From positions 1,215,717 through 1,279,716 of the forward strand of contig OZ244057.1 in NCBI GenBank assembly GCA_965215515.1: a DNA stretch of 64,000 nt, written 5' to 3'. Positions 2,607 through 64,000 of this stretch are shown piece after piece (position 1 is the first letter of the stretch; every line of letters starts with the position of its first letter). The notes under the pieces were generated by a model. It ran no database searches. It saw nothing but the letters and a program-made list of their open reading frames with translations, and was not told the origin of the DNA. The position numbers and the translations under genes are program-made. Origin of the DNA: Oligoflexales bacterium (GTDB lineage: Bacteria > Bdellovibrionota_B > Oligoflexia > Oligoflexales > JAPPIL01).

Positions 2607-3629
2607 TCACTGCTGGGCACAGGGAATAGTGCCTTTGCGCGTTTGGGCGTAGAAACAGTAGGTGCGCAGACGCGTAACCTTGCCCTCGGAACAGAAAGGG
2701 TTGATAACCTGTCCCTGCATCCATTCCTTATCTTTGTCGGAAGTTTCTTTGTGGTCGATGGCAAAGTATTTCTCATAAGTCCAGCGTTTTCTGTTTTGGT
2801 TGTCCATCCACGTGTCCTCCGTGCCGCTTTTGAACAACCAGCCTTGCCACGCACAGCCGATACCCACACCATCACTCGCTGGGGTCGGCGCAGCACTAAA
2901 CGGATAGATAAGTACATTTTCTCTCTGGCTACCAGCATCCTTCTCTCCCGCAAACCCTGCCTGCAGGTAGGTAACGCGTTCGTTGTCGCAGTAGACGTTG
3001 ATCGCGGTAAAAAGTTCGTTACCTCCATCCGTATCCAGGTATTCGTTGTGGTGCTTGTTCTTTTCAAACAGCCAGCCTTGCCAACCGTGACAAAAAACTC
3101 CCTCCCGCCCCGTCAGGGTGTCGATGCGGTGCGCATAATCTGGTGGTCGATGTTCTCTAAAGCGCCAAGCCATTTGCTGTGGTTTATGCATTCCTTGTCC
3201 AGAACGCATCCACGAGATAGCGATCAAGACCCGATCTTTATCGCAGTACACGTTGGGCATGACCCAGAGTTCTTTCCTGCTGGTGTCGAAGTACTGTTTC
3301 CAGTTTGTCGCCCCAGGATGGTATAACCACCCGCCAGGCGGCAAGGGTTTATCGAACGCCTGGCGCGTCTCGCCTGCATCGAGGCATTCGATACGTCGCT
3401 GGGCGTGCTGGTTTAATCTCTCGACAAAGGACTGTTTGTTAATCTGCGCCCCCTTCATGAAGCCTATAGACCTATCTCCCAAGCGATACTCCGTGTCATG
3501 GCTGGCTTTTATCGCTGCTGCTTTTTCGTGTCGCTGTGCGGGTTGATACCGAGGAAGCAACTGAACGCCATTGCCTGCGATAAACAGAGCGCTGCACAAC
3601 AGTGCGCTGTTGCCTAATTGTCGAAACAT
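2607..3629 (-). CDS. secreted hypothetical protein with three internal ~70-aa W-rich repeats (WQGWLF...VYCDxERV)
   Basis: N-terminal signal peptide (MFRQLGNSALLCSALFIAG). Repeats WLYHPGATNWKQYF...VYCDKDRV / WQGWLFEKNKHHNEY...VYCDNERV / WQGWLFKSGTEDTW... are visible in the translation and as DNA repeats near 2740-2830 and 3000-3090. 13-bp overlap with the next gene. Confidence 0.5.
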   Translation of the reverse strand: MFRQLGNSALLCSALFIAGNGVQLLPRYQPAQRHEKAAAIKASHDTEYRLGDRSIGFMKGAQINKQSFVERLNQHAQRRIECLDAGETRQAFDKPLPPGGWLYHPGATNWKQYFDTSRKELWVMPNVYCDKDRVLIAISWMRSGQGMHKPQQMAWRFREHRPPDYAHRIDTLTGREGVFCHGWQGWLFEKNKHHNEYLDTDGGNELFTAINVYCDNERVTYLQAGFAGEKDAGSQRENVLIYPFSAAPTPASDGVGIGCAWQGWLFKSGTEDTWMDNQNRKRWTYEKYFAIDHKETSDKDKEWMQGQVINPFCSEGKVTRLRTYCFYAQTRKGTIPCAQQ

Positions 3630-4270
3630 GATCCTTCCTTTGCGCGTTGAAAGGCGGCGTTATCGAGCAGTTGCTGACGTTGAAAGACCACGCTCCTGTC
3701 GGGCTCTAACGTCCTTGTCTGGGTATCGGCAAAGATCGTCTTACTGAGCCCATCGGTGAACCGTAACACCAGCTTAACGGTAGCAAGGGCTACTGCCTGC
3801 CTCCCATCGTTAGTAATGTCTATATAGCTCATGCTGTTTCGTTGGCAGCTGTCGGGGTAGGGAATTGAGCGCGGCACGGGGGCGATGATACCGCGCCATG
3901 CCTCTAGAGGTATCGGTTGTGCGCCAGCACTGGTAACGTAATGCTTTTGTCCGTCGCCGAATTCGACGGTGAAGTCTACCGCCTCAGGCTTAGTGTGCAG
4001 CTCGATCGACAACTCGCCTGGATTGATACAGCGGATGGCAAGGCAATCGGAGCCATCCTGACCGTTGATGGCGCGCCGCAGACTCTCGTAGTTATTGCGC
4101 TCCAGTACCATCCTTTTGTTGTGATCCTCTACGCACAGCAGTTCGGTGATCACCGCATCTTTGTTTTCAGGTGCCGCAAGTGCGCAGGGCACATCACCAC
4201 CAGCTGGTGCACTGTTGGCCGCTGACGACAGGAAATGAATACATAAAATGACGCTATTTCTCATCCCCAC
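3614..4270 (-). CDS. secreted hypothetical protein
   Basis: 218-aa ORF with an N-terminal signal peptide (MRNSVILCIHFLSSAANSAPAGG). Co-oriented with and overlapping the downstream repeat-protein gene. No recognisable catalytic motif. Confidence 0.45.
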   Translation of the reverse strand: MGMRNSVILCIHFLSSAANSAPAGGDVPCALAAPENKDAVITELLCVEDHNKRMVLERNNYESLRRAINGQDGSDCLAIRCINPGELSIELHTKPEAVDFTVEFGDGQKHYVTSAGAQPIPLEAWRGIIAPVPRSIPYPDSCQRNSMSYIDITNDGRQAVALATVKLVLRFTDGLSKTIFADTQTRTLEPDRSVVFQRQQLLDNAAFQRAKEGSCFDN

Positions 4271-4286
4271 GCACCCCGCACGGCTC

Positions 4287-4342
4287 TTATCGGCAAACTG
4301 GGCAGACGTTTTAGTAAAAAAAAATGTGGTCGTGCCGATAAG
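4287..4342. promoter_or_regulatory. perfect 10-bp inverted repeat (cttatcggca ... tgccgataag) bracketing an A9 tract in the 84-bp divergent intergenic region; candidate operator
   Basis: cttatcggca at 4287-4296 and its exact reverse complement tgccgataag at 4333-4342. A9 tract at 4317-4325. G6 run at 4345-4350 in the RBS region of the 4355/4361 ORF. Confidence 0.3.
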
Positions 4343-4354
4343 GCGGGGGGAGGT

Positions 4355-6079
4355 GTGGGGATGCGCGGTTGTTTGGGGTGTTATCTGTGGGTGAATGTGC
4401 TGGCTGGCTGTCAGGTGGTACAGTCACAGGGCAAGCGTGCCGAGGCTACCCGCACCTTTGCCGAGTTGAGCCTGCAGGAGAAATATACCTACCTGCGTGC
4501 GGTGCTGAAGGCACAAGAGCAAGCTATTCGTGCAACGCGCATCGCACGGGTGAAAAGCCATCGCGAGCAGTTGACCCATCGGGTTGATTTACAGGCGGTG
4601 ATGATCGACAACGGGGTCGACCGCCCGCAGCTGATTCGCCTGAGCTGGAGTCCTGTGCAGGCGGATAGCATCGAGTTGTTACGCTGCCAAGCAAAAGACA
4701 TCGCCGCAGACAAGACGGTAGCGCCTGACACAACAGTGGTTGCAGCTGGCTATGATTTCGATCATCTGCTAAGTAAGCCTAACGACTACGGGTTTCTGAG
4801 TTGTCGGCGTGTCTACGGGGAAATAAAAAATGGCACGAGCATTGTCGATTACTTGGCAGAGAATGAATTCAGCTACAACTATTTCCTGCGTCCTTGTTTT
4901 AAAAACTATGTCCTTACCGCTCCCGCGACAGATGCCAGTAAAGATGAGGAGTGTGGCGAGGAGAAGATAGTCGCAGCCGAAAACCAACAAAATGACACCG
5001 ACACAGCAGAGCAAACGAAGCTGGTATTCAGATATTGCCCAACCGCGGCGCGGCAAGTGTGCTCGAAAATAGTGAGTAAAGCTAACGGCGACAACAGCCC
5101 TCCGCTCTCTTTCAATCGAGGTATGCCTAGGCTCCCTACCCATTTATCTGCTGAGCTGAAGCGATTAACAGAAAAAATTGACCATCATGAAAATAAAGTG
5201 TGGGAATTGAGCGGTGGGGTGCTTGGAAAAATTTTAAATAATCCCATATCTCAAGACACTGCAAAACATGGGGGAATGCAAGCTGAGCTTAGCGGATTAT
5301 ATGAAGAGCATAAGGATGATATGGTCACACGCATGGACAGAGCTGAAGAGATGCGGGGAAATATTGAAATGTTAGCTGATAATATGCAAGCATCTGTCAA
5401 TAGTTCTATCGATGATTATGTCAGGATAGCCAATCAGCAACAACTGCCAGAGAGCCTCGGACTAGAGTTGTCGTTTGGTAAAAATAATTGCTATGGTGAC
5501 TATAAGGAGGTGAAGGAACAATTCTCGGTGGAGCGTCAGATCGAGCAGGGGCGCGCCGCACGCCGCAGTACATATACCGCGGTAGTAGACTCTGAGGAAA
5601 CAAGGCAGCAGGAAGAGCAGTTAAGGGAAGGGGCAGAAGAGTTAAAGGGATATGAGGATGCTGTAGTGGGTTTGGCGGTGGGCGGATGTCTCGTTAGCTC
5701 CTTGGCTGAAGTTGGTAAGCTGGTAAATTTAAATCCTTTAAAAAAAGGTTTTTTATCCCAAAAAATGCCTGAGGGTTTTAGCAGTCCAGATTGGAATCTA
5801 GCCGCGGTAAATGTTGTTACGAGTTTAATACCTATGGAGAACTCGCAGCTCAATAAACCTGACAGCATCACTGCTTTTGTCGATGCTCTGCATGGCATTT
5901 TTGCTGGGGCTGATACCTACGTCAAAAATCATTGTAAAGCTTGTTTAGATTATATAGCTGAGCTTAGGTATCACACCCGACAAATTCGTTATCTTCAGGA
6001 ACGGCTAGCAACACTGAATGTGGAGATAGACGAGGAACTTAGGAAAAAAGGAGCTATTGATGATCCTCATGCGCCGTGA
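4355..6079 (+). CDS. hypothetical lipoprotein, first gene of a 5-gene coupled operon (coiled-coil rich)
   Basis: 574-aa ORF. Probable start ATG 4361 after a GGGAGG RBS. Lipobox-like LAGC at residues 17-20. Long charged/coiled-coil segments and one internal hydrophobic stretch (AVVGLAVGGCLVSSLAEVG). AT-richer than flanking genes. Confidence 0.55.
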   Translation: MGMRGCLGCYLWVNVLAGCQVVQSQGKRAEATRTFAELSLQEKYTYLRAVLKAQEQAIRATRIARVKSHREQLTHRVDLQAVMIDNGVDRPQLIRLSWSPVQADSIELLRCQAKDIAADKTVAPDTTVVAAGYDFDHLLSKPNDYGFLSCRRVYGEIKNGTSIVDYLAENEFSYNYFLRPCFKNYVLTAPATDASKDEECGEEKIVAAENQQNDTDTAEQTKLVFRYCPTAARQVCSKIVSKANGDNSPPLSFNRGMPRLPTHLSAELKRLTEKIDHHENKVWELSGGVLGKILNNPISQDTAKHGGMQAELSGLYEEHKDDMVTRMDRAEEMRGNIEMLADNMQASVNSSIDDYVRIANQQQLPESLGLELSFGKNNCYGDYKEVKEQFSVERQIEQGRAARRSTYTAVVDSEETRQQEEQLREGAEELKGYEDAVVGLAVGGCLVSSLAEVGKLVNLNPLKKGFLSQKMPEGFSSPDWNLAAVNVVTSLIPMENSQLNKPDSITAFVDALHGIFAGADTYVKNHCKACLDYIAELRYHTRQIRYLQERLATLNVEIDEELRKKGAIDDPHAP

Positions 6080-6088
6080 TGTTTTTTT

Positions 6089-6595
6089 TTGCTATGTCTC
6101 GGCAGTTGTCAAGTGAGTGTCGATGACGCACACAAAGATTCCGCTACCTTGACGGCTATCGAGCAGACAGAATATGAGCGCCATCTCAGTGCCATCAATG
6201 CTTGTTTGCAGAGTGGCGGGGGAAGGGCTATGTCTGGGCAAGATCTCGCCGCGGCACGGCAGGCCTTACGGCGTGAACGACGGCTGCGCGGCGAAGCGGA
6301 AGAGATTCAACCTATCGCTTACGGCAGGATCTGTGCCAACTACACGAGTGGCACACTGGAAAGCGAACAGGTGCGTCGTTGCCGCTACCAGCTAGGTATT
6401 TATCCTATCACCGCGCTAAAATACTGTATCCAAGATGCTAGAGAGAGTGCCGCCATCATAAAAAAGCAGGTGCGGCATGCTTGCCAAAAGGCAAAAGATG
6501 CTGCTGAAAAGCTTTCTGAAAATCTCATAAAGGAACGGCGACTTAAGATGATACCAAATTACCTGCAACTCGAAGGACAAGAGTGTGGAGGATAG
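6089..6595 (+). CDS. hypothetical small lipoprotein (operon gene 2)
   Basis: 168-aa ORF starting TTG inside a T9 tract 10 bp after the upstream stop. LGSC lipobox-like N-terminus. Stop overlaps the start of gene 3 by 13 bp. Confidence 0.4.
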   Translation: MLCLGSCQVSVDDAHKDSATLTAIEQTEYERHLSAINACLQSGGGRAMSGQDLAAARQALRRERRLRGEAEEIQPIAYGRICANYTSGTLESEQVRRCRYQLGIYPITALKYCIQDARESAAIIKKQVRHACQKAKDAAEKLSENLIKERRLKMIPNYLQLEGQECGG

Positions 6596-8673
6596 TGATG
6601 TCGAGGCGACGTGCATTAGTTTTGTTACTGTGGTTGTGTGCCTGTGCTGCGCCTGTCGCACGGGAAGGTCGCCGTGTGCCGCGTGGCTGGACACTCGATA
6701 GCAGTAAACAGGACATAGCTGCTGTTAATGTTAGGGAACAGAAAGCTTTCGGCGAAGGGAAGACAATTAAGGTAGACAATTACAGCAGCGAAAGTCTTAC
6801 TACCGCAGCGACTTTAAGCCCCAACGATGGCAAGGAGCAATTGCGCGCGCTGGTCGCAGCATACAACAAACTGAAATGTAAAGACACCGCCTTAGAAGCT
6901 GCACTCAACGAATATCAAGACTGGCATTGTCTCGCGACACGCCGCATAGTCGAGAAACTAGAGGTGCATGTTTCGACATCCATCGGCGCAATGCGTGCTG
7001 CAGAGCACTGGCCACTTTTCCGCGTGAAGTTAGGCACTTCTGGCCAGAATGATTTTGGCAAAGTGCCCGCGGTCGATGGTGGCACGATCGTTTTTAGAAC
7101 AACTTTCGCGCTAGACGAAGCAGAACCTACCCACGGCTACAACATGCAGGAGGTGGTAAAGCAGATTACTTTTGAGTTGACAAATGCCGCCGCTTTTACC
7201 GCGCTGAAGGAACGTTTCGGAAGAGAGTTTTGTGCCGATGGCAGCTGGTTTAGTGGTTGCGGAGCGGGACAGAGTAAAACGCAGCAAAGAAGCTACTATA
7301 TCGCGACAAATACGGTAATCATCGATCGGGTGGAGGTGTACTTGTATTTTGTCGATGATGAGCGCCCCTACAAGGTATTCGCCTCGGACACTTCGTCGGC
7401 TAAACCGCTAGCTCGTTTAGATCAGATTAACCAGCATTATAGCATCGCTAATTTTAAGAACAATCCGCACTGGCTACTGCACTACCATTCACGAAGATGC
7501 AAGTCGTGGGGCGATAAGAATCACGACGGCTCGGATTTTGGCAAATATGTATGGGATAATTACATTGCGAAAGAAAACCCAAATACCATCGATGTTTACA
7601 CACAACTTACCTGTGCAGGGACGAGCCATATGCCCGTTTACGTCGATCCCGAAATTCCTGCTATAGATAACATAAGTAAAGACGACGCGGTGGCAGCATG
7701 GGTAGAAGAGAACGCCAGCAGTTTCAAGCCCTCTGCCAACCGCCGCGAGCCCGAGTGTCAGATACGCACCGCAAAAGTGATCGTACAAGAAGCCGAAGAT
7801 CAGAACAAGTGCGGTGTTACGGAGGAACAGGAACTGCAAGTGCCTTCTGATCTTGACAGTTGGACGGCGGAACGTTTGAAAAGCAAGGCAGTTGATATGC
7901 AAAAAGCAAACAACGAGCTTGAGATAAGTGCCGAGGGAAAAATTACGGATTTAAATGCTATCACGGGTAACGGTTGTTTTTATGAACAACCGCTGTTAGC
8001 TGGCATACAGGTTGAGATTACGGGGCAGAGGCTGGTCAATGTCGGAGGGCGGCTGATGACGAGGAAGAGAGCCGAAGAATGTATTTTCAAGCGAGGAAGC
8101 CAACTGGGGGAGCCTCGCGACAATCCTCTCTATATTAACTTAGGTCTGCACGAATTATCTTATCCCATCATTATCGCAGACAGTGGCGAGGTGGAAAACG
8201 GCAAGTTTTCCTACACTGGTGAGGGGAAACTGCATATCGGGGAGGGGTATACCGAAAAATTTGCTTTGCGTGATGTTCTCTTTCTCCATCTCGCCAGACA
8301 ACAAAATAGCAGTGTGTTTGTGAAAGAAAGGGTTATCGAAACAACCGATAGAGACGGTTTTTTGTCTAACACCAGTGGGGTAGATTTATTATCTACCTCA
8401 GTCGAGTATGGCGTTGTCGCGGTACATAGCATCGAGCTGATTTTTAATGGCAGCACTATCTATAAAGTCGGCAGTCCCTATACTGATAGTCAGTGGGCAG
8501 GTTTAAATGATGATAGAGGGCGATGTGATTTTAGCACCTCAGATGTGTTAGAGTCGCTGTTTATCTTAACTGACAGCAACAGTGCTTGGAGCGATTATGG
8601 GCTACGCAGCAATGCCGCGTGGGTTAAGTGGCGTGATGAGGTTGATCATTGTGCGGTGAAGGAAACAGAATAG
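6583..8673 (+). CDS. hypothetical large secreted/lipoprotein (operon gene 3)
   Basis: 696-aa ORF. Signal peptide with LCAC lipobox (RRRALVLLLWLCACAAP). Many Trp/Tyr/Cys. No recognisable enzymatic motif. Overlaps both neighbours, consistent with translational coupling. Confidence 0.55.
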   Translation: MWRIVMSRRRALVLLLWLCACAAPVAREGRRVPRGWTLDSSKQDIAAVNVREQKAFGEGKTIKVDNYSSESLTTAATLSPNDGKEQLRALVAAYNKLKCKDTALEAALNEYQDWHCLATRRIVEKLEVHVSTSIGAMRAAEHWPLFRVKLGTSGQNDFGKVPAVDGGTIVFRTTFALDEAEPTHGYNMQEVVKQITFELTNAAAFTALKERFGREFCADGSWFSGCGAGQSKTQQRSYYIATNTVIIDRVEVYLYFVDDERPYKVFASDTSSAKPLARLDQINQHYSIANFKNNPHWLLHYHSRRCKSWGDKNHDGSDFGKYVWDNYIAKENPNTIDVYTQLTCAGTSHMPVYVDPEIPAIDNISKDDAVAAWVEENASSFKPSANRREPECQIRTAKVIVQEAEDQNKCGVTEEQELQVPSDLDSWTAERLKSKAVDMQKANNELEISAEGKITDLNAITGNGCFYEQPLLAGIQVEITGQRLVNVGGRLMTRKRAEECIFKRGSQLGEPRDNPLYINLGLHELSYPIIIADSGEVENGKFSYTGEGKLHIGEGYTEKFALRDVLFLHLARQQNSSVFVKERVIETTDRDGFLSNTSGVDLLSTSVEYGVVAVHSIELIFNGSTIYKVGSPYTDSQWAGLNDDRGRCDFSTSDVLESLFILTDSNSAWSDYGLRSNAAWVKWRDEVDHCAVKETE

Positions 8674-37965: not shown

Positions 37966-38697
37966 TTATTCACGTAACGCGGCGATCAGGGCGACTAACT
38001 CGGCACGGCTGTAATTCTTGAGCAGCACATTGGAGTTGTCGTCGGGCGAGGACTCTTTCTGCGCTAGCACCTTCTCCAGGGCATCGGCAGCCTTGCGTCG
38101 TGAGGACATGGCAAGGTCGGCGAAACGTGCCCACTTCTTGGCCAATTCGAGGTGTCGCCATGCACAGGAATGGTAGACACCCTGTGCGCAGTAAAAGTTC
38201 GCAATGGAGATAAAACTACCCGCGATGCGCCGCTCGCCCTGCTCGATCAACTGCTGTGCCTGCCGTGCTTCCGCACTGCGAGGGTACGCCGCCAACAGCG
38301 CACGCCACGCTGCAAGTGCTTGGTAAGTGTAGTTCTGCTCGCGATCGACTTCGGTCGGAGCCTCTACCCAGTGCGCTTGCCCGATTTGAAACATGGCGTA
38401 AGCACGACGAGGATGGCGCGGGCGTAGACGTACGAAACGCTGGTAGGCGAGCAAGGCCTCTGGATAACGCGCCAGCGCATAGAACGCATCAGCGATCAGT
38501 AGTTCAGCCTCAGCGGCCAGTTTGTTGTAGGGATAGCGCGACTTGAAACTACCGAGACGAGCAATAGCCAGCTCGTAATCCTGCCCCTCGAAACTTTCCC
38601 GCGCCGCAGCAAAGGCCGCCTCAGGATTGTGAGGATCGCCGTTTTTGGCAAAACAACCGCTCACGGTAAGATAAAAGATTAACAAAAACAAGTGCAT
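37966..38697 (-). CDS. TPR-repeat lipoprotein, BamD/YbgF-like
   Basis: Start at internal ATG 38697 (MHLFLLIFYLTVSGC, lipobox VSGC). Several TPR-like helices (ELAIARLGSFKSRYPYNKLAAEAELLIADAFYALARYPEALLAYQRF...). Divergent from the TonB-domain gene. Confidence 0.5.
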   Translation of the reverse strand: MHLFLLIFYLTVSGCFAKNGDPHNPEAAFAAARESFEGQDYELAIARLGSFKSRYPYNKLAAEAELLIADAFYALARYPEALLAYQRFVRLRPRHPRRAYAMFQIGQAHWVEAPTEVDREQNYTYQALAAWRALLAAYPRSAEARQAQQLIEQGERRIAGSFISIANFYCAQGVYHSCAWRHLELAKKWARFADLAMSSRRKAADALEKVLAQKESSPDDNSNVLLKNYSRAELVALIAALRE

Positions 38698-38809
38698 GGC
38701 AACAAACAAGTAAGCATTCGCGTTACATCTGCCGATCTTACCAGTATCATAAAGGACGCGATCAGTAACCCTGTTTTTTGCGGGGAAGACGGATTGAGAG
38801 GAGAATACG

Positions 38810-39580
38810 GTGCGGCAAGCCATCGTCATCATCGCCCTGTCACTTGCCATCCACCTGCTACTGTGGATGATCTTCACCTCACTCGCCACCCCTCAGCGGC
38901 CGCTCACCCGTAAAGTGGCAACACCTACCGTCCTACAGGTGCAAGTCGTGCCAGCACCGCAAGCAAAACGTATCCTGGAGACTGAGCAGGAGGAAACCGA
39001 GCCACCGCTGCAGGCACGCTATCTCGGTCGCACCAACCATCGGGCTGAGGTTGCGACCAAAAAGCAAGCCGCCCCCCGCCGCCGTGCCGCTGTGGAGAAA
39101 TTTGTGCCCCGCCGTAGCATCACCGCACCTCGTTCCGCCACGAACAAACGTGCGCTACCTAAACTGACCTACGCACAGTTTCTGCAACAATCTCACCGCA
39201 GACTCGCCAGCAACGTCGCTCAGGACTTTTTTATTCCCGATGACCTCGCCCGCGGCACCGCGATAGACATCAGCACCCGTGAATATCGTTATATCGGCTA
39301 CTTCAGTAGCCTGCGGAAAGCGATCGAGTTGGCGTGGCACTACCCCGCCCAGGCGGCACGGCGCGGCCAGCAGGGCATCGTGCGCTTGCGGTTTGCGATC
39401 GCCGCCGACGGCTCAGCCTCGCGGATCAAAGTCATGCAATCGTCAGGCTACCGCCTACTCGATGTCGCCATCGTCGACGCTATCCGCCTCGCCTCGCCGT
39501 TCTCCCCCTTTCCTAAAGGGTTCGGACGCGCACAACTCACCATCACGGGCTCGTTTCACTACGTCTTGCGCGGCATCTAA
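38810..39580 (+). CDS. TonB-family protein (N-terminal TM anchor, Pro/charged linker, C-terminal TonB domain)
   Basis: N-terminal TM (AIVIIALSLAIHLLLWMIF). Linker rich in P/A/R. C-terminal block ...YPAQAARRGQQGIVRLRFAIAADGSASRIKVMQSSGYRLLDVAIVDAI... resembles the TonB C-terminal domain. No exbBD nearby. Confidence 0.6.
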   Translation: MRQAIVIIALSLAIHLLLWMIFTSLATPQRPLTRKVATPTVLQVQVVPAPQAKRILETEQEETEPPLQARYLGRTNHRAEVATKKQAAPRRRAAVEKFVPRRSITAPRSATNKRALPKLTYAQFLQQSHRRLASNVAQDFFIPDDLARGTAIDISTREYRYIGYFSSLRKAIELAWHYPAQAARRGQQGIVRLRFAIAADGSASRIKVMQSSGYRLLDVAIVDAIRLASPFSPFPKGFGRAQLTITGSFHYVLRGI

Positions 39581-41334
39581 CCACCGCTGTTAAAACATTT
39601 TCTTATCTCGTCCAGGTCAGCCTGATCTACCGTGCCGTCGCCATTGACATCGGCACGATGGGCAGGGTCATAGGTTTGTGTGGGTCGAGCACCGAGCGAT
39701 GATGCTGCCTTAGTTAGATCAAAAATATTGACAACACCATCGTTGGTGACATCGGTGTGCTTATAGCCGTTGAAGGTGACTTCGATACGCTTGCAACGCC
39801 GCGTCGTCCAGCTCGCATTAGCATCTCCACCGATGTACCGTATCCCTGCCTCGATATTGCAATCACTCGCACCCTTGCTGTCTCCGTTGCTGTATACCAG
39901 AAATTCCTGTCGATGCACCTCGCAATCCGTCGCCGCGTTAGGATTGGGCGTGAACTTGACATACTTCTCGCCCGTACTCGTCCTTGTGGTCATGATTCCT
40001 GTCTCGATAGTCACTAGACTAGAGAATTTTTCGTACTTCTCTACCTTCTCTTGCTTGGTTAGTGTACTGTCGAACGCGGGTACTGCTTCGATTTGCAGTG
40101 CGAGGTTGCCAAAGCGAACGTTGCTAGCTTTATTGAGGTTCTGGACGGATGTGCTGACAGACTGATCTTTGTGGGTAAGCTCGACCTCCCATGTGCTAGT
40201 ATCGAGCAGGGGAATTTCGAGGGCGATCGTCGTTTTTATCCTAAAGCCGCTGTCCGTGTTACTGAAGGTGAATAGCCGCTCCCGTCGGTAGGGGCGGCCG
40301 TAATCGGTGCCGCTGCCTTTGCTCAGCTTGAAGTAAACCGCGGTACTTTTTCCCGCCGCGAGCGTGCCGCTAGCCAGGCTTTCCGCTGCGCTCACGGGCT
40401 GGTACGTGCCTGTCAGCCCTGATCTAAACTGCAACCATGCCGCAGCCTGCTCGCTTTTTACTTTCCAGCGCAGTGTCCCTTGCCCGATGTTACTAACGGT
40501 AACCGGATAGGCAATCACACTACCGCTGATAATGGTGAGGTTCTTGTTTAGCACTTTGAGCGCACCGACAGCTTTCGCCTGGGTGGCAGGCTGTTCATCA
40601 TCGGGACTGGGGGTGGGTTGCTGCTTTTCCCACGTGTAGCGCGTTGCCACCAGCTGTCGCTCACTGTTGTCGCCCAAGCCGCGCAGACAAAGGGTCTTAG
40701 GCCCATTTGCACCGACGGTTAGCTCAAGTATCTTGTTTATCGGCTGTGCCGCGCGGTAGCTAACGTCAGAATCGGTAGCGATATCCGCACAGTCGTATTC
40801 TTTTTCCTGGATCAGCACATACTGGTAGTGGGTGGTGATATCATTGCCTACAATCTCGTTCACGAGCTTAGCGGCGGTGTCTATGGGTTGTGTTTCTAGA
40901 TAAGCGTTCGGTAGCTTGTCGTCCGTGGCAGCACCATCGACCTTTGTCCAGCTGTAGCGTTTAGGGTCGTCTTGCACCTCGCCGTGCTCGTTTTTACCTC
41001 TGAGACAGAGAGTTTTCTCGCCGTTGCCGCCGATCTCGGGAACTGCCAGTTTGGTGTCAAGGGGTAGGAATTCCCCATAGTTAGCGGTGTCGCAGGCCGC
41101 GTCGGCATCGCGCAACAGGGCAAACTGGTACGCGGTCGCCGTGTCGTTGCCTGAGACCGTCGCCTCCACGCTATCGGCACTCGACTCGCCCGCAGGCAGC
41201 CCTTGCCCTGCCTCTACCCAGACCTCTGGCGCAGCCGACGGGTTTGCCTCGCCTCCCCCTCTGGATGGCTCCTCGGGGCGTTGAGTATCACAAGCAATCG
41301 CCAGCAAACCCACCAACCAAGGGATAATCCTCAC
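39577..41334 (-). CDS. large secreted lipoprotein with two copies of a novel ~75-aa Cys-containing domain and a C-terminal dockerin-like (type I) Ca-binding repeat pair
   Basis: Lipobox IAC (LVGLLAIAC). Repeats ...Y.FALL...C....YGEF...G.KTLCLRG...G..Q..P..Y.W... twice. C-terminus DVTNDGVVNIFDL...LG / DVNGDGTVDQADL matches the dockerin D.N.DG.VN..D consensus. Confidence 0.55.
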   Translation of the reverse strand: MRIIPWLVGLLAIACDTQRPEEPSRGGGEANPSAAPEVWVEAGQGLPAGESSADSVEATVSGNDTATAYQFALLRDADAACDTANYGEFLPLDTKLAVPEIGGNGEKTLCLRGKNEHGEVQDDPKRYSWTKVDGAATDDKLPNAYLETQPIDTAAKLVNEIVGNDITTHYQYVLIQEKEYDCADIATDSDVSYRAAQPINKILELTVGANGPKTLCLRGLGDNSERQLVATRYTWEKQQPTPSPDDEQPATQAKAVGALKVLNKNLTIISGSVIAYPVTVSNIGQGTLRWKVKSEQAAAWLQFRSGLTGTYQPVSAAESLASGTLAAGKSTAVYFKLSKGSGTDYGRPYRRERLFTFSNTDSGFRIKTTIALEIPLLDTSTWEVELTHKDQSVSTSVQNLNKASNVRFGNLALQIEAVPAFDSTLTKQEKVEKYEKFSSLVTIETGIMTTRTSTGEKYVKFTPNPNAATDCEVHRQEFLVYSNGDSKGASDCNIEAGIRYIGGDANASWTTRRCKRIEVTFNGYKHTDVTNDGVVNIFDLTKAASSLGARPTQTYDPAHRADVNGDGTVDQADLDEIRKCFNSGG

Positions 41335-41511
41335 GCTAACCTCCAGGCAGTGATCGTCGCTCCTCCATCGGTAAACTAAGTAAATAGTTTAATTTTCCTG
41401 TGTTGTTTTGCCTGTCAGGCTATTTTTAGATGTAAAAACAAATAGTTAATTGATAGGCGGGGCGTTGTTGCATAGGTCGGCGTATTCAACAAAGGCCGTG
41501 TCGCTTCCCTG

Positions 41512-58116: not shown

Positions 58117-58560
58117 CTAATCATCGTCGGGAGGCGGATCGACAACAATCGACCAAGCAAACGCAGTAGGTGTCTTTTGTGTAACGCCGTGCGCGTCCTT
58201 GCCGATAGCGCAGAGCAGATAAGAATCTTCCTGTAGATCACGATGGGTAATCGTCTGTGTGAGTGCGACGAAATCGCCGTAATCAGCGCTTTCACACCCC
58301 GAACTGCCGCCCGCAGCCGCATCACCTGCGAGCAAGGCATGCTTATACTCGACAGCCCCGTTTTGGCTGCTAACGACGACATCGATAGCATCACTGTCGT
58401 CCTCTATGCTCGGCAAATTTTCAAAACTAACACTGACCGCCTTACCGACCTGGGATTCAGCTGTTTGCGCGCTAGCATATTCTGAACCTGTGGACTGATA
58501 ATCGCGTTCATCGGCGCGGCAAGCAAATAACAGTGACAGCAATACGCACGTTCTCACCAT
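58117..58560 (-). CDS. small lipoprotein carrying one copy of the novel Cys-containing ~75-aa domain
   Basis: Lipobox LFAC (VLLSLLFAC). ...YKHALLAGDAAAGGSSGCESADYGDFVAL...SYLLCAIGKDAHGVTQKTPTAFAW... parallels the repeats in the 39577-41334 and 58665-60083 proteins. Confidence 0.4.
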   Translation of the reverse strand: MVRTCVLLSLLFACRADERDYQSTGSEYASAQTAESQVGKAVSVSFENLPSIEDDSDAIDVVVSSQNGAVEYKHALLAGDAAAGGSSGCESADYGDFVALTQTITHRDLQEDSYLLCAIGKDAHGVTQKTPTAFAWSIVVDPPPDDD

Positions 58561-58664: not shown

Positions 58665-60083
58665 ATGCACTGCTGTGCCGATGCTTGCGTTGTATTGAGG
58701 GGAACGATCTTGCGACAGCTGATGTTCTTTACGATGTTCGCTAGCGCGCTGGTGGTCTGCACCGACAGACCGCGCGACGACAGCCAGAGAGATGGTGCGG
58801 ATGAGGATAAAACCGCAGATAGCACGTCAGGGGCAGCACCGCAGGTGGTGTTTATCAATAAACCTGATGATTCTAGTGCTAGTCGGATTATCGTGGCAGT
58901 CATACACAGCAATTGGCGCACTAGGGAGTATGCTTATGCTCTTATCAAGGGTGAAGGTGATTGCAACAGTCCAGCTTACAGCAGCTGGCGAGAGTTCACC
59001 GTTCCCATCACGTTAACCCCTGAGATGCTCGGCGGATACGGCATCAAGACCTTGTGCGCCAAGGGTAGAGGATCTGATGGCAGCGAGCAAAAGATTCCTA
59101 CACGGCATAGGTGGCAACTGCTGCCACCTGTAGATGCAGCTGCAGCCGCAGATGTTCCACCTGACGCTGATTCTAGCTCTGACACTGCGGCTACCTCTAC
59201 CACGCCGCTACCCGCGTCCGCCGTGGTTACAACGACCCGCGGCTTGCGACTGTCGGACAACGTTTTGAAGTTTGCCAGTGCGAGCAGGGAGATAAAGACC
59301 GTCGCTCTGATGAACATCGGTAAAAGCCAGCTAGAATGGTCGGTTACGACTACTCAGGGGGGAGGATTACTGAGTGTACGCAAGGTTGCTGCTAGTGCCA
59401 AGGATGAACCCGATGATGGCAGTCATTGGCAAGCTATGGACACCTCGCGACCCCTCCCGTTGTCGGGAACGCTAGCCAGAGATAGTAGGGAGCAATATCT
59501 ACAGTTTAAGTTGTCTGATTCGGATAAAACCGACTACGGGGGCAATCAAGCGACGACCATAGCAATCGGAGATGGTTCTGGCAGCAGTGTCGAGCTAACG
59601 GCACATATCCTCGTTCCTCAACTGAGGATTACGGGGAGCGGAAATAATATCGTCAAGAAGGTCAGTGACCAGGTCTGGCAGGTAAATTTAAGTCCCACGG
59701 TCAGGGAAGCCAGCCTGACCATAGCTAATGCTAAGGCACAGGGATCTCTTGATGATTTGTCATGGGATGTATTTCCCTATGCCTGGTTACCAGACTGGCT
59801 TGATTATGTTAAGAGTGCGGGCGATCTAACTATCTATCTCGAGGGTGATTGCAGGCTTTATCCCGCAGCTAGTGAAGACGATGAACTTACCCTAGTGATC
59901 GCTTCCAACAGCGACAGTACGGGAGTACAGGCGCGCAGTTTTGCTCTGACTCACGCACAGCAGGAGATTGTGTGGCAGGAGGAGGGAGGAGTTACCAAGA
60001 GCAAAAGAGCTGAGTGGCGCACCGACGACATCAGGTATGTGGTGGTGAAGTATGAAAACGAAAATAACACTCCTTGCCCCTAG
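58665..60083 (+). CDS. hypothetical secreted protein with N-terminal copy of the novel Cys-containing domain
   Basis: Signal peptide (LMFFTMFASALVVC). ...YAYALIKGEGDCNSPAYSSWREF...GYGIKTLCAKGRGSDGSEQKIPTRHRW. Divergent from the small lipoprotein gene. Confidence 0.45.
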   Translation: MHCCADACVVLRGTILRQLMFFTMFASALVVCTDRPRDDSQRDGADEDKTADSTSGAAPQVVFINKPDDSSASRIIVAVIHSNWRTREYAYALIKGEGDCNSPAYSSWREFTVPITLTPEMLGGYGIKTLCAKGRGSDGSEQKIPTRHRWQLLPPVDAAAAADVPPDADSSSDTAATSTTPLPASAVVTTTRGLRLSDNVLKFASASREIKTVALMNIGKSQLEWSVTTTQGGGLLSVRKVAASAKDEPDDGSHWQAMDTSRPLPLSGTLARDSREQYLQFKLSDSDKTDYGGNQATTIAIGDGSGSSVELTAHILVPQLRITGSGNNIVKKVSDQVWQVNLSPTVREASLTIANAKAQGSLDDLSWDVFPYAWLPDWLDYVKSAGDLTIYLEGDCRLYPAASEDDELTLVIASNSDSTGVQARSFALTHAQQEIVWQEEGGVTKSKRAEWRTDDIRYVVVKYENENNTPCP

Positions 60084-60137: not shown

Positions 60138-60809
60138 TCAGGGGCAGATATACCCTCGTGCGGCATTGTCTCGGGATAAGCTACTGGCATCGAGCACACC
60201 GGTAGCACACACCGATGTGCCGTCTGTCTTCGTGTATTTAAGCCGCCAGGGAATTTGCAAAGCCATGGAGAGAGAAGTCCCGCCGTCTAGTAGCTCTGAG
60301 CTATGAACATCCATCCCTCGATACTTTTGCTCTTCCAGTTCCAGTTCTGCCCCTTCTTGCACTTTTTCGTTGGGATCGAAGACGACATGAGGTTTAAATC
60401 CTCCTTCCTGCACTTCGAGGTAGAGCGATACTGCCGCGGGAGCAGTACTGATGGCAGCATGGGGTTCACAACTGTTGCTGTCCCTTAATAACCCTTCCAA
60501 CTGACATCTTTTGCCTTTTGTGTCCCGTACAATGCAGCCAGCATTATCACTTCTTTCCGCTGCTAATCCAACTACCTTACAACCTTCAGGCTGCGTCACG
60601 GAAACAAAAGAGCAGCCTTCGGCAAATTCTTTAATACTATACTCACCTTGGCAAACGGTTTTTGTGGTTAGATTGATACGACACGTGCCATCAGCATTCG
60701 TCCCGTGCATACATTCAGGCGGGGTACGTTTACGCCCCGATTTAATACAGCTTTCGGTCAACAATGTTAGTAGCAGCAATGTTGACAACCACACAAAACT
60801 AAATTTCAT
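60138..60809 (-). CDS. Cys-rich hypothetical lipoprotein
   Basis: Lipobox TESC (LLLTLLTESC). 14 Cys in 223 aa. AT-rich. Immediately downstream of spoVR. Confidence 0.4.
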   Translation of the reverse strand: MKFSFVWLSTLLLLTLLTESCIKSGRKRTPPECMHGTNADGTCRINLTTKTVCQGEYSIKEFAEGCSFVSVTQPEGCKVVGLAAERSDNAGCIVRDTKGKRCQLEGLLRDSNSCEPHAAISTAPAAVSLYLEVQEGGFKPHVVFDPNEKVQEGAELELEEQKYRGMDVHSSELLDGGTSLSMALQIPWRLKYTKTDGTSVCATGVLDASSLSRDNAARGYICP

Positions 60810-60835: not shown

Positions 60836-62338
60836 TTAAATTTTCTCTATCTGATGATCAGTTCCAGAACAGGAAATTCTTTTCGCTACTCCTTCAATAC
60901 GTGTCTCCAAATGCACAGGTCGTTTCCACAAGCGGAATAAATTTTTTAGTGTCTCCAAAGCAAAATCCTGCTTAAGATCCAGTTCTTTGTGTTCATGCAC
61001 CAGCAACAGTTCACGACGATTGCGAAAGTTGCCGTCTTTGACAACGATAATTGGATTACCTACGTTAGTGAGTTGGTCGAGCAGTTTGCGTTTAACGTCG
61101 GAGAATTCACGTGACGAGATAACGTGCTTGTTACGATTGCGATCGTAATCGTAGACAAGCATTTTTTGTTCGTGACAAAAATCCTCGTCAAGATAGGCAT
61201 CGATAAACGTTACATCGTTATGTACTCTTCTTATTTCAAAAAGTTTTTCTTTGCCTTGTTGAGTGTGTCTATTCCAAAACTTGCGCCTTTTTGGATCAGT
61301 GCAGTTGAGATAGTCAAGGCCAAAACGTCCTTCGTTCCAGCGTTTTTCGCAATGCCGTAGCAGCTCAACACCCAGCTTGTACGGATTAAGCTGCCCTGGC
61401 TGGCTGGCGACTACTCCCGCGTAATGATCGCAGTAGTCGATAATTTCCGCCGCGGATAGAGGATAGAGATTAGTCATCATCTTGCTGTGCCAATATGTCG
61501 CCCAGCCTTCGTTGAGGATTTTTGTCTGTGCTTGTGGGGCAAAATAATAAGCTTCAGCACGAATTATATCTAACAACTGCCATTCCCAATCTTTTAGCGG
61601 TGCATGGCAAAGCAAATAATTCAGTACGTCTCGTTCGTTAGTTTTAGAATCAAGCAAAGGGTCTTTGCTATGTTTTTCTTCCAATAATTTACGTTTACGA
61701 GCAATGTATTCTTTAGGATTAACGTACGTGTCCATGTAGGACTTGGCATCGAGTTTCAGTTCATCTTCGGTAATATGCAAATCTTCTGAGGTCTTTTCAT
61801 TTTTCTTTTTAGCTTTTACTTTGAAAGGGGAGTAGATATCGATTAAATTTTCTAGCGACAGACAGCAGTCAAGCAGACTCTCGACCTTATCATGCCCAAT
61901 ATCGTTGATCAGTGAGCGTACAATCGTGCCGTGATTAGCCATTTGGTTAAGCATTTTGTCGTTAGTTTTACTGAACCAGTAATTTTTTTGAAAAAAATCA
62001 CAATGTCCATAGACATGAGCGATCACTGTTTTTTGATAGACAAGATCGTTTGCCCGTAACAGATAGGCGTAGCAAGGGTTGTTATTGATGACCATCTCAT
62101 AAATAATCGCCAAACCATAGGTATAGCTTTTAGCTAGGCGTTCGTATTCCATCCCGAAACGCCAATGTGGGTAGCGGGTTGGAAACCCCATGTAGGCTGC
62201 GATTGCGTTAAGTTGCTTGTAATCGACCAGCTCAAAGATAGTTGTGCACGGTTCAAGTCCTGCCTCACGAGCAGCTTGTTCGAGTTCTTGGGCAAAAAAA
62301 TTAATTTCTTCAGTCAGCTTTGTATCAAAGCCCAGCAT
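60836..62338 (-). CDS. spoVR: SpoVR-family protein
   Basis: 500 aa with conserved SpoVR blocks (YAYLLRANDLVYQKTVIAHVYGHCDFF; NEGWATYWH). Start codon 1 bp after the yeaH stop. Confidence 0.85.
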   Translation of the reverse strand: MLGFDTKLTEEINFFAQELEQAAREAGLEPCTTIFELVDYKQLNAIAAYMGFPTRYPHWRFGMEYERLAKSYTYGLAIIYEMVINNNPCYAYLLRANDLVYQKTVIAHVYGHCDFFQKNYWFSKTNDKMLNQMANHGTIVRSLINDIGHDKVESLLDCCLSLENLIDIYSPFKVKAKKKNEKTSEDLHITEDELKLDAKSYMDTYVNPKEYIARKRKLLEEKHSKDPLLDSKTNERDVLNYLLCHAPLKDWEWQLLDIIRAEAYYFAPQAQTKILNEGWATYWHSKMMTNLYPLSAAEIIDYCDHYAGVVASQPGQLNPYKLGVELLRHCEKRWNEGRFGLDYLNCTDPKRRKFWNRHTQQGKEKLFEIRRVHNDVTFIDAYLDEDFCHEQKMLVYDYDRNRNKHVISSREFSDVKRKLLDQLTNVGNPIIVVKDGNFRNRRELLLVHEHKELDLKQDFALETLKNLFRLWKRPVHLETRIEGVAKRISCSGTDHQIEKI

Positions 62339-63432
62339 TAGCGTCCTCTGCCCAGAAAAATTTTCAGCGCAGCGATAATCGCATCACGATCTTTTATTTT
62401 GGCTAGTGCAACTCTCTCATTGTTAGGAAAACTTTTCTCCAGATCACGTAAAAACTGCCCCGACCCGTAACGTGACTCAACTTGCCCATAACTGAACAAG
62501 TTAGCATTGGGTAAAATATCGTTTTTCATAATATTAAGGCACTCCGTGGTATCGTTACCAGACCAGTTATCGCCATCAGAAAAATGAAACAGATAAACAT
62601 TCCATATCTCGGTTGGATAATCTTTTTCCATAAGATTTACTGCCAGTTGGTAGGCAGAGCTAATCAATGTGCCTCCTGATTCGCGGGTACGATAGAAGGT
62701 TTCTTGATCTACTTCACGGGCGATCGCGTCGTGCACAACATAGCGTCGTTCTAAACCTGCGTATTGTCTGGTCAACCAAGTATCTAGCCAAAATGCGGTT
62801 AGGCGCACAATTTTTTTTTGTTCTTCGCCCATACTGCCAGAAACATCCATCATGTAAATCACGACCGCGTTTGTTTCGGGCTTAGAGACCGTTTTAAACG
62901 AGCGATAGCGTTTATCGTCTTTGACAGGAACAATCATGGGAGATTGTGCGTCATACGTACCACTGATAATTGCGCGTTTCAATGCTTCTCGGAACGTACG
63001 TTTGAAATGCCGCAACGACTCAGGCCCTTGCTTAAAAATACCTGTATACTTATGTTGCAAAGCCTCGATATTTTTTTCCCCCTTACCCCTGATACGCGGC
63101 AAGGCTAGCTCTTCACTGAGAATGTCGGCCAGTTCCTCCAGTGAAACTTCTACCTCAAGGGTTTTTTCCCCTTCGCCCTGACCAGCCTGCTGTTGTTCTC
63201 CTTGCGCTTGTCCTGGTAATGGATCACCGACTTCGCCTTCGCCCTGTCCTACGCCACGTTGTTGTGGGCCGAATTGAAACCTCGGTATATCTATACGGGG
63301 GAGAGGGATACTGATTGTCTTGCCCCCCTGCCTACCGAGCAAATCACCGCTAGTAATAAATTTGCGCAGTTCTTTTTTTATTTTACCACGCACAATCTTG
63401 TGGAAGCGATTTAAATCAGAATCCATCTTCAT
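62338..63432 (-). CDS. yeaH: YeaH/YhbH-family protein (DUF444, vWA-like)
   Basis: 364 aa. Conserved motifs of the UPF0229 family (VVIYMMDVSGSMGEEQK; Gly/Gln-rich acidic linker GQGEGEVGDPLPGQAQGEQQ). Confidence 0.85.
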   Translation of the reverse strand: MKMDSDLNRFHKIVRGKIKKELRKFITSGDLLGRQGGKTISIPLPRIDIPRFQFGPQQRGVGQGEGEVGDPLPGQAQGEQQQAGQGEGEKTLEVEVSLEELADILSEELALPRIRGKGEKNIEALQHKYTGIFKQGPESLRHFKRTFREALKRAIISGTYDAQSPMIVPVKDDKRYRSFKTVSKPETNAVVIYMMDVSGSMGEEQKKIVRLTAFWLDTWLTRQYAGLERRYVVHDAIAREVDQETFYRTRESGGTLISSAYQLAVNLMEKDYPTEIWNVYLFHFSDGDNWSGNDTTECLNIMKNDILPNANLFSYGQVESRYGSGQFLRDLEKSFPNNERVALAKIKDRDAIIAALKIFLGRGR

Positions 63433-63434
63433 TA

Positions 63435-64000
63435 CTATTTCTCTTGTTTAGTAACTCCACCGCGGGCGAAAATGCTGGCAACAAAATTCAGTGCATCGCT
63501 AGCACATATATCGCAGTAGTGATAGTTTTTAACCAAACGTCCTTTGACAACAGAAATTTTTTCTTGAGTTTCCTTGTCGACAACGTTGGAAACAAGAGTT
63601 GTCAGTTTGATAGTATCTCTTTGATCTTCAAATAACTTAAGTTCAAGTGCTTTGTGCAAACGCTCGTTGGTTTTATAGTCGAACGATCGTCCTTCGAGAG
63701 CTAAAGCACCTATATAGTTCATGATTTCACGCCGAAAATCATCTTTACGACTGTCGGGAATATCGATTTTTTCTTCGATCGAGCGCATGAGGCGTTCATC
63801 AGGCTCTTCGTCAGCACCTGTGAAAGGGTTTTTGACTTTCTCGTTTTGGATATAAGCTTTGAGGTTATCGATATAGTTGGCACATACTTTGGAGATAGCT
63901 GACTCATCGGCAGATATGGCGCGCTGCACCTCGTGTTTGACAGTGTCTTCGTATTCACGTTTCACCTCGGCAAGTAATTCAGTGTAACGCTTGCGATCTT
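63435..64000 (-). CDS. prkA: PrkA-family serine protein kinase (AAA+ N-domain not in window), C-terminal 176 codons; gene continues past the window end
   Basis: C-terminal PrkA blocks (...[34 protein letters not shown]...[15 protein letters not shown]...). 2-bp gap to yeaH. Classic prkA-yeaH-spoVR order. Confidence 0.8.

What the first reader, a model, noticed from the sequence alone, without database searches (positions are those of the whole stretch)
39577..41334. Secreted lipoprotein with dockerin-like Ca-binding tandem at the C-terminus and two copies of a novel Cys-containing domain shared with two other loci
The C-terminus contains DVTNDGVVNIFDL...LG and DVNGDGTVDQADL, matching the type-I dockerin duplicated F-hand consensus. 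This implies cohesin-like partner binding or Ca-dependent anchoring. The body carries two ~75-aa repeats (Y.FALL..(D)..C....YGEF........G.KTLCLRG....G..Q..P..Y.W). The same domain occurs once in the lipoprotein at 58117-58560 and once in the secreted protein at 58665-60083. This defines a dispersed paralogous family of surface proteins with an undescribed domain.
Basis: seen in the sequence. Interest (0 to 1): 0.6.

Follow-up and report, generated by a model that had tools for sequence, protein, structure and literature searches.

The report
Lipoprotein with Ig-like repeats and dockerin
The gene encodes a lipid-anchored envelope protein built from beta-sandwich modules and ending in a dockerin-type calcium-binding module; its "novel" cysteine domain is an uncatalogued branch of the common bacterial Ig-like adhesin repeats, so the finding is real but fairly ordinary.

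Summary
ORF 39577-41334 (-) encodes a 585-aa protein with a lipoprotein signal (Cys15) and a C-terminal module that passes the Pfam Dockerin_1 cut-off (33.9 vs 22.9 bits). It carries two ~85-aa Cys-pair domains, which recur once in ORF 58117-58560 (-) and once in ORF 58665-60083 (+). A profile built only from copy 1 finds the other three copies at E 5e-10 to 6e-14; the next-best window ORF scores E = 2.

The interpretation needs correcting in three ways:
- **The domain is not private to this genome.** A profile search finds 640 cluster representatives, some with up to 26 tandem copies. It folds as an Ig/Fn3-like sandwich. It has no Pfam or NCBIfam model, but shows weak motif-level links to Big_13/Big_3_3 and the SiiE BIg domains.
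- **The 585-aa and 472-aa proteins are paralogues over their whole length.** The larger one has gained a second N-domain and the dockerin.
- **No cohesin was found** in 47 window ORFs, and the C-terminal module resembles calmodulin EF-hand pairs about as well as it does dockerins.

The family (about 25 proteins) appears confined to relatives of an Oligoflexales MAG. Most likely role: a lipid-anchored, Ca2+-dependent adhesion or tethering protein. This is inferred, not shown. It is a new member of known kinds, of modest interest.

The parts
39577..41334 (-). Gene A: 585-aa lipoprotein made of signal/lipobox, 2 Cys-pair Ig-like domains, a BACON-like Ig module, an alpha/beta 'YSNGDSKG' module and a dockerin-type module
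   Evidence: ORF. 13 orthologues at 41-50% identity share the architecture. AF2 model has mean pLDDT 72.5 and is mostly beta.
41340..41344 (-). Shine-Dalgarno-like GGAGG, 5 nt upstream of the GTG start
   Evidence: Read from the sequence. The N-terminus MR... matches the orthologues.
41290..41334 (-). Signal peptide with lipobox LAIA|C (aa 1-15); Cys15 invariant
   Evidence: PROSITE-like rule matched in A and all 13 family members. C15 is invariant.
40933..41193 (-). Cys-pair Ig-like domain, copy 1 (aa 48-134; Cys81, Cys110)
40615..40887 (-). Cys-pair Ig-like domain, copy 2 (aa 150-240; Cys182, Cys216)
   Evidence: Found at iE 5e-13 by an HMM built only from copy 1 sequences. C182 and C216 are invariant.
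40210..40572 (-). BACON-like Ig module (aa ~255-375) with an invariant TDYG motif; shared with protein C
   Evidence: Sub-threshold Pfam BACON_2 in 7 of 13 orthologues, best E 4e-4. All-beta with pLDDT 80-93. Aligned to C by hhalign.
39760..40209 (-). C-terminal alpha/beta module (aa ~376-525) with invariant YSNGDSK and Cys471, Cys492, Cys514; shared with protein C (SNSDS)
   Evidence: Invariant columns. hhalign to the C family. No Pfam or PDB sequence match.
39598..39756 (-). Dockerin-type module (aa 527-579): Ca2+ loops at aa 528-539 (nt 39718-39753) and aa 562-573 (nt 39616-39651), each followed by a helix; invariant Cys580 just after
   Evidence: Pfam Dockerin_1 33.9 bits vs cut-off 22.9, matched in 13/13 orthologues at E <= 1. 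Best PDB profile hit is the C. thermocellum xylanase Y dockerin 2ccl_B/1ohz_B. Helices 537-545 and 571-580 in the model, at low pLDDT.
58117..58560 (-). Gene B: 147-aa mini-lipoprotein (lipobox LLFA|C) with one Cys-pair Ig-like domain (aa 53-142, nt 58135-58404)
   Evidence: A 149-aa counterpart lies in L004.
58665..60083 (+). Gene C: 472-aa full-length paralogue of A with one N-domain (aa 69-158, nt 58869-59138), a BACON-like module and an SNSDS module, and no dockerin
   Evidence: hhalign A family vs C family: 99.6%, E 1.4e-24, 419 columns. 10 orthologues.
38810..39580 (+). Context, not part of the protein: a convergent TonB-family gene whose stop codon overlaps that of A by 4 nt, followed by a BamD/YfiO-like gene at 37966-38889 (-). 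This arrangement is conserved in orthologous loci
   Evidence: Pfam TonB_C and YfiO. Synteny in L001, L002 and L003. Sequences.

Best explanation
Gene A encodes a lipid-anchored cell-envelope protein of an Oligoflexales-like (Bdellovibrionota) bacterium, built as beads on a string. After the lipobox cysteine and a short disordered linker come two Ig/Fn3-like beta-sandwich domains, each carrying a conserved cysteine pair. These belong to a large, so far unmodelled subfamily of the bacterial Ig-like repeats that make up giant adhesin-like proteins. Here they most likely form a disulfide-stapled stalk. Next comes an acidic, proline-rich linker, then a clade-specific body made of a BACON-like Ig module and an alpha/beta module with a YSNGDSKG motif. 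The protein ends in a dockerin-type pair of Ca2+-binding loop-helix motifs.

The most likely role is Ca2+-dependent adhesion or tethering at the cell surface. In this picture the dockerin-type module is the Ca2+-dependent interaction or stabilisation element and the body is the specific binding part.

Shown: the architecture, the lipobox, the Dockerin_1 membership by score, the repeat homology, the paralogy with C, the fold class and the distribution. Inferred: the disulfides, the surface location, Ca2+ binding and any partner binding.
For: - Lipobox in all 13 orthologues and in B, with an SD sequence before the GTG start.
- Dockerin_1 above the gathering cut-off and matched in 13/13 orthologues.
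- The profile aligns 52 positions to 52 residues of the xylanase Y dockerin, so the loop spacing is the same.
- Loop positions 1, 3, 5, 6, 8 and 12 are D, T/N, D, G, V, D.
- There are 640 homologous representatives, some with up to 26 tandem copies.
- The two Cys are 94% and 100% conserved across 217 diverse copies.
- There are weak links to Big_13, Big_3_3 and SiiE through the ADGxYTLxVxxxDxAGN motif.
- A and C are homologous over the whole body.
- A evolves fast: 46% identity to its orthologue, against 70-80% for its neighbours. This is typical of exposed proteins.
Against: - No partner was identified. No cohesin appears among 47 window ORFs.
- The C-terminal module alone matches calmodulin EF-hand pairs as well as dockerins (E about 2e-5). 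The AF2 model is of low confidence there (pLDDT 35-58).
- Asp at +2 after the lipidated Cys in A would mean inner-membrane retention under the E. coli rule. The residue varies among orthologues.
- Nothing here tests adhesion, Ca2+ binding, disulfides or location.
Confidence: 0.55

Rival explanations
1. True cohesin-dockerin system. The dockerin docks protein A onto a cohesin-bearing scaffold or anchor protein encoded elsewhere in the genome, assembling a surface complex.
For: Dockerin_1 passes the Pfam cut-off, and the best PDB profile hit is a clostridial type I dockerin with the same loop spacing. The module is conserved in all 13 orthologues.
Against: No cohesin was found in 47 window ORFs, and no other dockerin-type loop occurs in the window. 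Loop positions 10-11 are IF and QA, not the Ser-Thr pair used by clostridial type I dockerins to contact cohesin (read; the role of that pair is from my own knowledge). Dockerin-like modules without cohesins are reported as common outside cellulosome producers (Peer et al. 2009, seen only as a reference in PMC6487960; its content is from my own knowledge).
Confidence: 0.15
2. The C-terminal module is only a structural Ca2+-binding EF-hand-like pair stapled to the body and has no partner. The function lies in the BACON-like and YSNGDSKG modules, for example glycan or envelope-polymer binding, as in paralogue C, which has no dockerin.
For: Similarity to calmodulin is equal to that to dockerins. 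Paralogue C has the same body without the module. In the C family a Cys in 'DCxLYP' and a C-terminal 'CP' Cys are present or absent together. hhalign aligns A Cys471 with the first of these, and A has an invariant Cys580 at the end of the dockerin. This suggests a staple that closes the module onto the body. There are weak BACON_2 matches.
Against: EF-hand Pfam models stay below their cut-offs in A (12-14 bits vs 25-30). BACON_2 is sub-threshold. No carbohydrate-active enzyme or transporter is linked to the gene in four orthologous loci. The disulfide is inferred, not measured.
Confidence: 0.25
3. Periplasmic, inner-membrane-retained lipoprotein that works with the adjacent TonB and BamD genes in envelope biogenesis or transport.
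For: The A / TonB / BamD arrangement is conserved, with a 4-nt overlap of convergent stop codons, in the window and in L001-L003. A has Asp at +2.
Against: The genes are convergent, so they are not co-transcribed. The +2 residue varies (A, T, E, S, D) among orthologues. A diverges much faster than TonB and BamD. The upstream neighbours differ in every locus.
Confidence: 0.05

Closest known systems
Type I dockerin (Pfam PF00404), e.g. the Clostridium thermocellum xylanase Y (Xyn10B) dockerin, PDB 1ohz_B / 2ccl_B
   Same: Two 12-residue Ca2+ loops (DxNxDGxVxxxD), each followed by a helix. The inter-loop spacing is the same and the module is C-terminal. It scores above the Pfam gathering cut-off.
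   Different: The host is a Gram-negative lipoprotein with no glycoside hydrolase. No cohesin was found nearby. The Ser-Thr recognition pair is missing. Loop 1 has Thr at position 3. An invariant Cys follows the last helix.
Bacterial Ig-like repeats of giant adhesins (Pfam Big_13 PF19077, Big_3_3 PF13750; SiiE BIg domains, PDB 2yn3)
   Same: Beta-sandwich of about 85 aa, used in long tandem arrays in very large proteins. Shares the C-terminal motif ADGxYTLxVxxxDxAGN...W.
   Different: The copies in A, B and C match no Pfam model even at E <= 10. The subfamily has a nearly invariant Cys pair (94% and 100%) that the SiiE segments aligned lack at the second Cys position (S/V in place of C). Matches to Big_13 cover only the last third of the model.
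Calmodulin-type EF-hand pair (Pfam EF-hand_7 and relatives)
   Same: The loop-helix-linker-loop spacing aligns with both calmodulin lobes at E about 2e-5.
   Different: EF-hand models are below threshold in A. Loop 1 follows a beta-strand directly, with no predicted entering helix (low confidence).
BACON / BACON_2 domains (Pfam PF19190)
   Same: An Ig-like module with the pattern G.L.W...WL...G.L..G, placed membrane-proximal in lipoproteins. Weak hits in 7 of 13 orthologues.
   Different: Below threshold, no hit for A itself, and not in Bacteroidota.

Membership tests
Dockerin type I (PF00404) | Score above the Pfam gathering cut-off | tested here: met
   33.9 bits vs 22.9, aa 527-579. All 13 orthologues match at E <= 1, best 7.9e-9.
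Dockerin type I (PF00404) | Duplicated 12-residue Ca2+ loop with D1, N/D3, D/N5, G6, hydrophobic 8 and D12, at dockerin spacing | tested here: met
   DVTNDGVVNIFD and DVNGDGTVDQAD start 34 residues apart. 52 profile positions align to 52 residues of 2ccl_B. Loop 1 has Thr at position 3; the orthologues have Asn.
Dockerin type I (PF00404) | Loop-helix (F-hand) motifs without entering helices | tested here: inconclusive
   The AF2 model shows only helices 537-545 and 571-580, with loop 1 preceded by strand 515-521. However, pLDDT is 35-58 in this region.
Dockerin type I (PF00404) | A cohesin partner encoded in the genome, with Ca2+-dependent binding to it | not testable with these tools
   Only 64 kb of the genome is available. 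No cohesin was found in 47 ORFs. Binding needs an experiment.
EF-hand pair (PF13499 / PF00036) | Score above the Pfam gathering cut-off | tested here: not met
   EF-hand_7 12.1 vs 30 and EF-hand_1 13.9 vs 25.4 in A.
Bacterial Ig-like domain Big_13 / Big_3_3 | Match to the Pfam model | tested here: not met
   No hit for A, B or C at E <= 10. Only 7 of 63 diverse family copies give sub-threshold Big_13 hits. Multi-copy relatives reach 27-41 bits through partial matches to model positions ~45-99.
Ig/Fn3-like beta-sandwich fold (E-set type) | Predicted fold superposes on solved Ig/Fn3-like sandwiches | tested here: met
Bacterial lipoprotein (SPase II substrate) | Lipobox [LIVMFWSTAG]2-[LIVMFYSTAGCQ]-[AGS]-C after an uncharged h-region, near the N-terminus | tested here: met
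   Met in A, all 13 A-family members and B. Not met in the window's C (ALVVC), although 8 of the other 9 aligned C-family members meet it. Lipidation itself was not tested.
BACON_2 (PF19190) | Score above the Pfam cut-off | tested here: not met
   No hit in A. Best E 4e-4 among 7 of 13 orthologues.

The most novel reading that the evidence does not exclude
The dockerin-type module of this clade-restricted lipoprotein could be one half of a non-cellulosomal cohesin-dockerin-like docking system on the surface of Oligoflexia (Bdellovibrionota). In that system the Cys-pair Ig-like repeat family (at least 640 representative proteins, no Pfam or NCBIfam model) would provide the stalks. That would be a protein-assembly system on a Gram-negative surface with no link to polysaccharide degradation.
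Probability: 0.1. Interest if true: 0.6.

Novelty: new member of a known kind. Interest (0 to 1): 0.25.

Why it matters
There are three practical gains, none of which changes current understanding.
- **An annotation gap.** A repeat domain found in hundreds of very large, adhesin-like proteins has no Pfam or NCBIfam model. The precomputed Pfam record for an 11-copy protein shows only a faint Big_3_3 hit, and the six members whose source gives any name are called 'hypothetical protein'. The 63-sequence alignment made here (A4) could seed a model.
- **A small lipoprotein family in a poorly studied lineage.** It is fast-evolving and appears confined to relatives of an Oligoflexales MAG. It shows a clear history of module gain: a duplicated N-domain and an added dockerin.
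- **One more non-cellulosomal dockerin.** This is a dockerin-type module on a Gram-negative lipoprotein, and the function of such modules is still unknown.

Tried and rejected
- **NCBIfam** on A, B and C gave nothing meaningful. NCBIfam on six multi-copy relatives gave only weak OmpL47-type or Ca_tandemer matches outside or at the edge of the domain.
- **PDB sequence searches.** The narrow domain profile (A3) found nothing at E <= 10. The broad profile (A4) found only SiiE at E 1e-3 through a 23-residue motif.
- **Fold searches.** The full-length model against PDB returned only generic multi-Ig proteins with TM <= 0.22, which is uninformative. The afdb50 library was unavailable. For that reason the aa 376-525 module could not be searched on its own; both structure-prediction jobs had also been used.
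- **Locating the window's genome.** The look-up of encoding contigs found no record for the window's own protein. The genome-contig scan returned only one relative, an Oligoflexales MAG. The window's organism is therefore inferred from 46-80% identical syntenic genes, not identified.
- **Body-profile search (A6).** It retrieved only C-family proteins, because of the word-index pre-filter. 'Clade-restricted' is therefore a lower-bound statement.
- **Names.** The listing of cluster members gave only 'hypothetical protein'.
- **Literature.** The searches found cellulosome papers only. Peer et al. 2009 is not held.
- **Rejected ideas.** The repeats are not a chance or low-complexity match. The domain does not match a known Pfam family outright. 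A is not in an operon with TonB, because the two genes are convergent.
Full report

Yes. The ORF at 39577..41334 (-) is 585 aa with a GTG start. A GGAGG lies 5 nt upstream. The N-terminus MRIIPWLVGLLAIAC matches those of 12 other proteins in the same family. A PROSITE-like lipobox rule is met, with Cys15 as the lipidated residue, in A, in every member of the 13-protein family and in ORF B.

The two quoted Ca2+ loops are at aa 528-539 and 562-573. They are the only such loops in any six-frame ORF of the window. Pfam Dockerin_1 scores 33.9 bits against a gathering cut-off of 22.9.

The two body repeats lie at about aa 48-134 and 150-240. Single copies lie in B (58117..58560 -, 147 aa) and C (58665..60083 +, 472 aa). 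All four align with invariant Y, L, Y, LC, G, Q, W. As an independent test, an HMM built only from copy 1 of the orthologues finds copy 2 of A at 5e-13, B at 6e-14 and C at 5e-10 among 1,133 six-frame ORFs. The next best ORF scores E = 2. There is no further copy in the window.

**2. What is the N-terminal domain?**

None of the four copies matches a Pfam or NCBIfam model, even at E <= 10. The domain is nevertheless far from private to this genome.

- **Distribution.** A 23-sequence profile searched against 1.84 billion cluster representatives finds 640 proteins at E <= 1e-3 and 251 at E <= 1e-10. Many are giant: up to 6,874 aa among those listed, and up to 26 matched stretches in one 3,197-aa protein.
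- **Consensus.** Across 217 diverse copies it reads ..sLnVtVsG..v..YkYal....dC..a.Ys...vst.I...lgaDG.ktLCV.GrDaaGN.Q..aT.ytWtKD. The two cysteines are conserved at 94% and 100%. The copies in A, B and C are divergent members of this family.
- **Sequence links to known families.** Multi-copy relatives give partial Big_13 and Big_3_3 matches of 27-41 bits, covering only the last third of the Pfam model. Seven of 63 single copies give sub-threshold Big_13 hits. A broad profile hits the BIg domains of the Salmonella adhesin SiiE (2yn3) at E 1e-3 through ADGxYTLxVxxxDxAGN.
- **Annotation.** The precomputed Pfam record for an 11-copy protein shows only 'Big_3_3 (faint)'. Where a source gives a name, it is 'hypothetical protein'.

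My reading is that this is an unmodelled, Cys-pair-bearing branch of the bacterial Ig-like adhesin repeats. It is a known fold and a known kind of module, but a real gap in the domain databases.

**3. What is the rest of the protein?**

The full-length AF2 model (pLDDT 72.5) is a string of beta modules.

- **aa ~255-375** is an Ig-like module with an invariant TDYG motif. It gives sub-threshold BACON_2 hits in 7 of 13 orthologues.
- **aa ~376-525** is an alpha/beta module with one long helix (427-440). It has an invariant YSNGDSK motif and Cys471, Cys492 and Cys514. It has no Pfam or PDB sequence match.

Profile-profile comparison shows that A and C are homologous over the whole body (99.6%, E 1.4e-24, 419 columns). 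A is therefore a C-like protein that gained a second N-domain and a C-terminal dockerin. Two A orthologues have only one N-domain. In related genomes the B/C locus carries extra paralogues. The body profile found no relatives outside these families, but the word-index filter limits that search.

**4. Is the C-terminal module a dockerin?**

By score, yes. The family profile's best PDB hit is the C. thermocellum xylanase Y dockerin (2ccl_B, 1ohz_B). It aligns 52 positions to 52 residues, so the loop spacing is identical.

Calmodulin EF-hand pairs score almost the same (2e-5). The EF-hand Pfam models stay below threshold in A. The model shows two helices, one after each loop, and a beta-strand directly before loop 1. 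That is the dockerin 'F-hand' pattern, but confidence there is low.

Loop positions 10-11 are IF and QA rather than the Ser-Thr pair of clostridial type I dockerins (sequence; the role of that pair is from my own knowledge). No cohesin is present among the 47 window ORFs scanned. The module is thus a dockerin-type Ca2+ module. Whether it binds a cohesin-like partner remains open.

One inference follows from the cysteines. In the C family, a Cys in 'DCxLYP' and the C-terminal 'CP' Cys are present together in eight proteins and absent together in two. hhalign aligns A Cys471 with the first of these. A has an invariant Cys580 at the end of the dockerin. A Cys471-Cys580 staple would tie the dockerin's C-terminus back to the body. 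This was not measured.

**5. Context and organism**

The only relative in the species-representative genome set is an Oligoflexales MAG, OZ245333.1. A is 46% identical to its orthologue there, while the adjacent TonB-family and BamD-like genes are 70% and 80% identical.

The arrangement A / convergent TonB / BamD, with a 4-nt overlap of the two stop codons, recurs in L001, L002 and L003. The upstream neighbour differs in every locus. The genes are convergent, so this is conserved position rather than an operon.

The rest of the window is ordinary chromosome: ParAB, enolase, MnmG, UvrD, IcmF-like mutase, PilT-like ATPase, SpoVR/DUF444.

**6. Mechanism**

Most likely (0.55) A is a lipid-anchored envelope protein. 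Its disulfide-stapled Ig-like domains act as a stalk, its clade-specific body is the binding part, and its dockerin-type module provides Ca2+-dependent interaction or stabilisation. In short, it is an adhesion or tethering protein.

- **For this reading:** the lipobox, the adhesin-type repeats, the fast divergence and the Ca2+ loops.
- **Against it:** no partner is known, the location is untested, and Asp at +2 in A could mean inner-membrane retention if the E. coli rule applied. That residue varies among orthologues.

The rivals are a true cohesin-dockerin system (0.15), a purely structural Ca2+ module with the function in the body (0.25), and a periplasmic partner of TonB/BamD (0.05).

**7. 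Verdict**

This is a new member of known kinds: a non-cellulosomal dockerin-type lipoprotein carrying an unmodelled subfamily of bacterial Ig-like repeats. Interest is modest (0.25). The most useful outcome is a seed alignment for a missing domain model, plus a testable question about a partner for the dockerin-type module.

Noticed in passing
window 39577-39580; L002 7725-7728; L003 7506-7509: The stop codons of gene A and the convergent TonB-family gene overlap by exactly 4 nt: CTAA in the window, CTAG in two orthologous loci. The overlap is conserved even though A is only 41-50% identical across these genomes.
   Followed up: partly
window 2607-11059: Seven consecutive ORFs (340, 218, 574, 168, 696, 437 and 365 aa; two on the - strand, then five on the +) have no Pfam match at E <= 1e-4. 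This is a block of unknown genes next to the uppS and cdsA genes.
   Followed up: no
window 58665-58760: The first-ATG start of ORF C gives a 19-aa extension (MHCCADACVVLRGTI...) that the orthologues lack. Its lipobox has Val at -1 (ALVVC) and fails the rule, while 8 of the other 9 aligned C-family members (with LVAC or IVGC) pass it. The true start is probably further downstream, and lipidation is uncertain.
   Followed up: partly
window 60138-60809 (-): A 223-aa Cys-rich ORF with a signal/lipobox-like N-terminus (LLTLLTESC) lies immediately after gene C. It has no Pfam match and does not match the shared N-domain profile.
   Followed up: no
L004 2809-4368 (-): In a related genome, a 149-aa ORF with only the N-domain (the counterpart of B) sits directly upstream of a 302-aa ORF that matches the body profile. 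This looks like a split paralogue. The window retains only the 147-aa B, next to the IcmF-like gene.
   Followed up: partly
L004 4380-5843 (-); L005 2825-5844 (-): Related genomes carry extra 487-511-aa paralogues (N-domain plus BACON-like part) at the B/C locus. The family therefore expands and contracts locally.
   Followed up: partly
proteins P0023 and P0024 (alignment A5): These two C-family proteins lack both the 'DCxLYP' cysteine and the C-terminal 'CP' cysteine that all the others have. This covarying pair suggests a disulfide. They also carry an insert of about 90 aa after the N-domain.
   Followed up: partly
window 37966-41334 vs L001: Gene A is 46% identical to its Oligoflexales MAG orthologue. 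The adjacent TonB-family and BamD-like genes are 70% and 80% identical, so A evolves much faster than its neighbours.
   Followed up: yes
window 60836-63965 (-): SpoVR-like and DUF444 (YeaH-like) genes lie in tandem, with a further ORF at 63435..63965 (-) that was not scanned. Unrelated to the finding.
   Followed up: no
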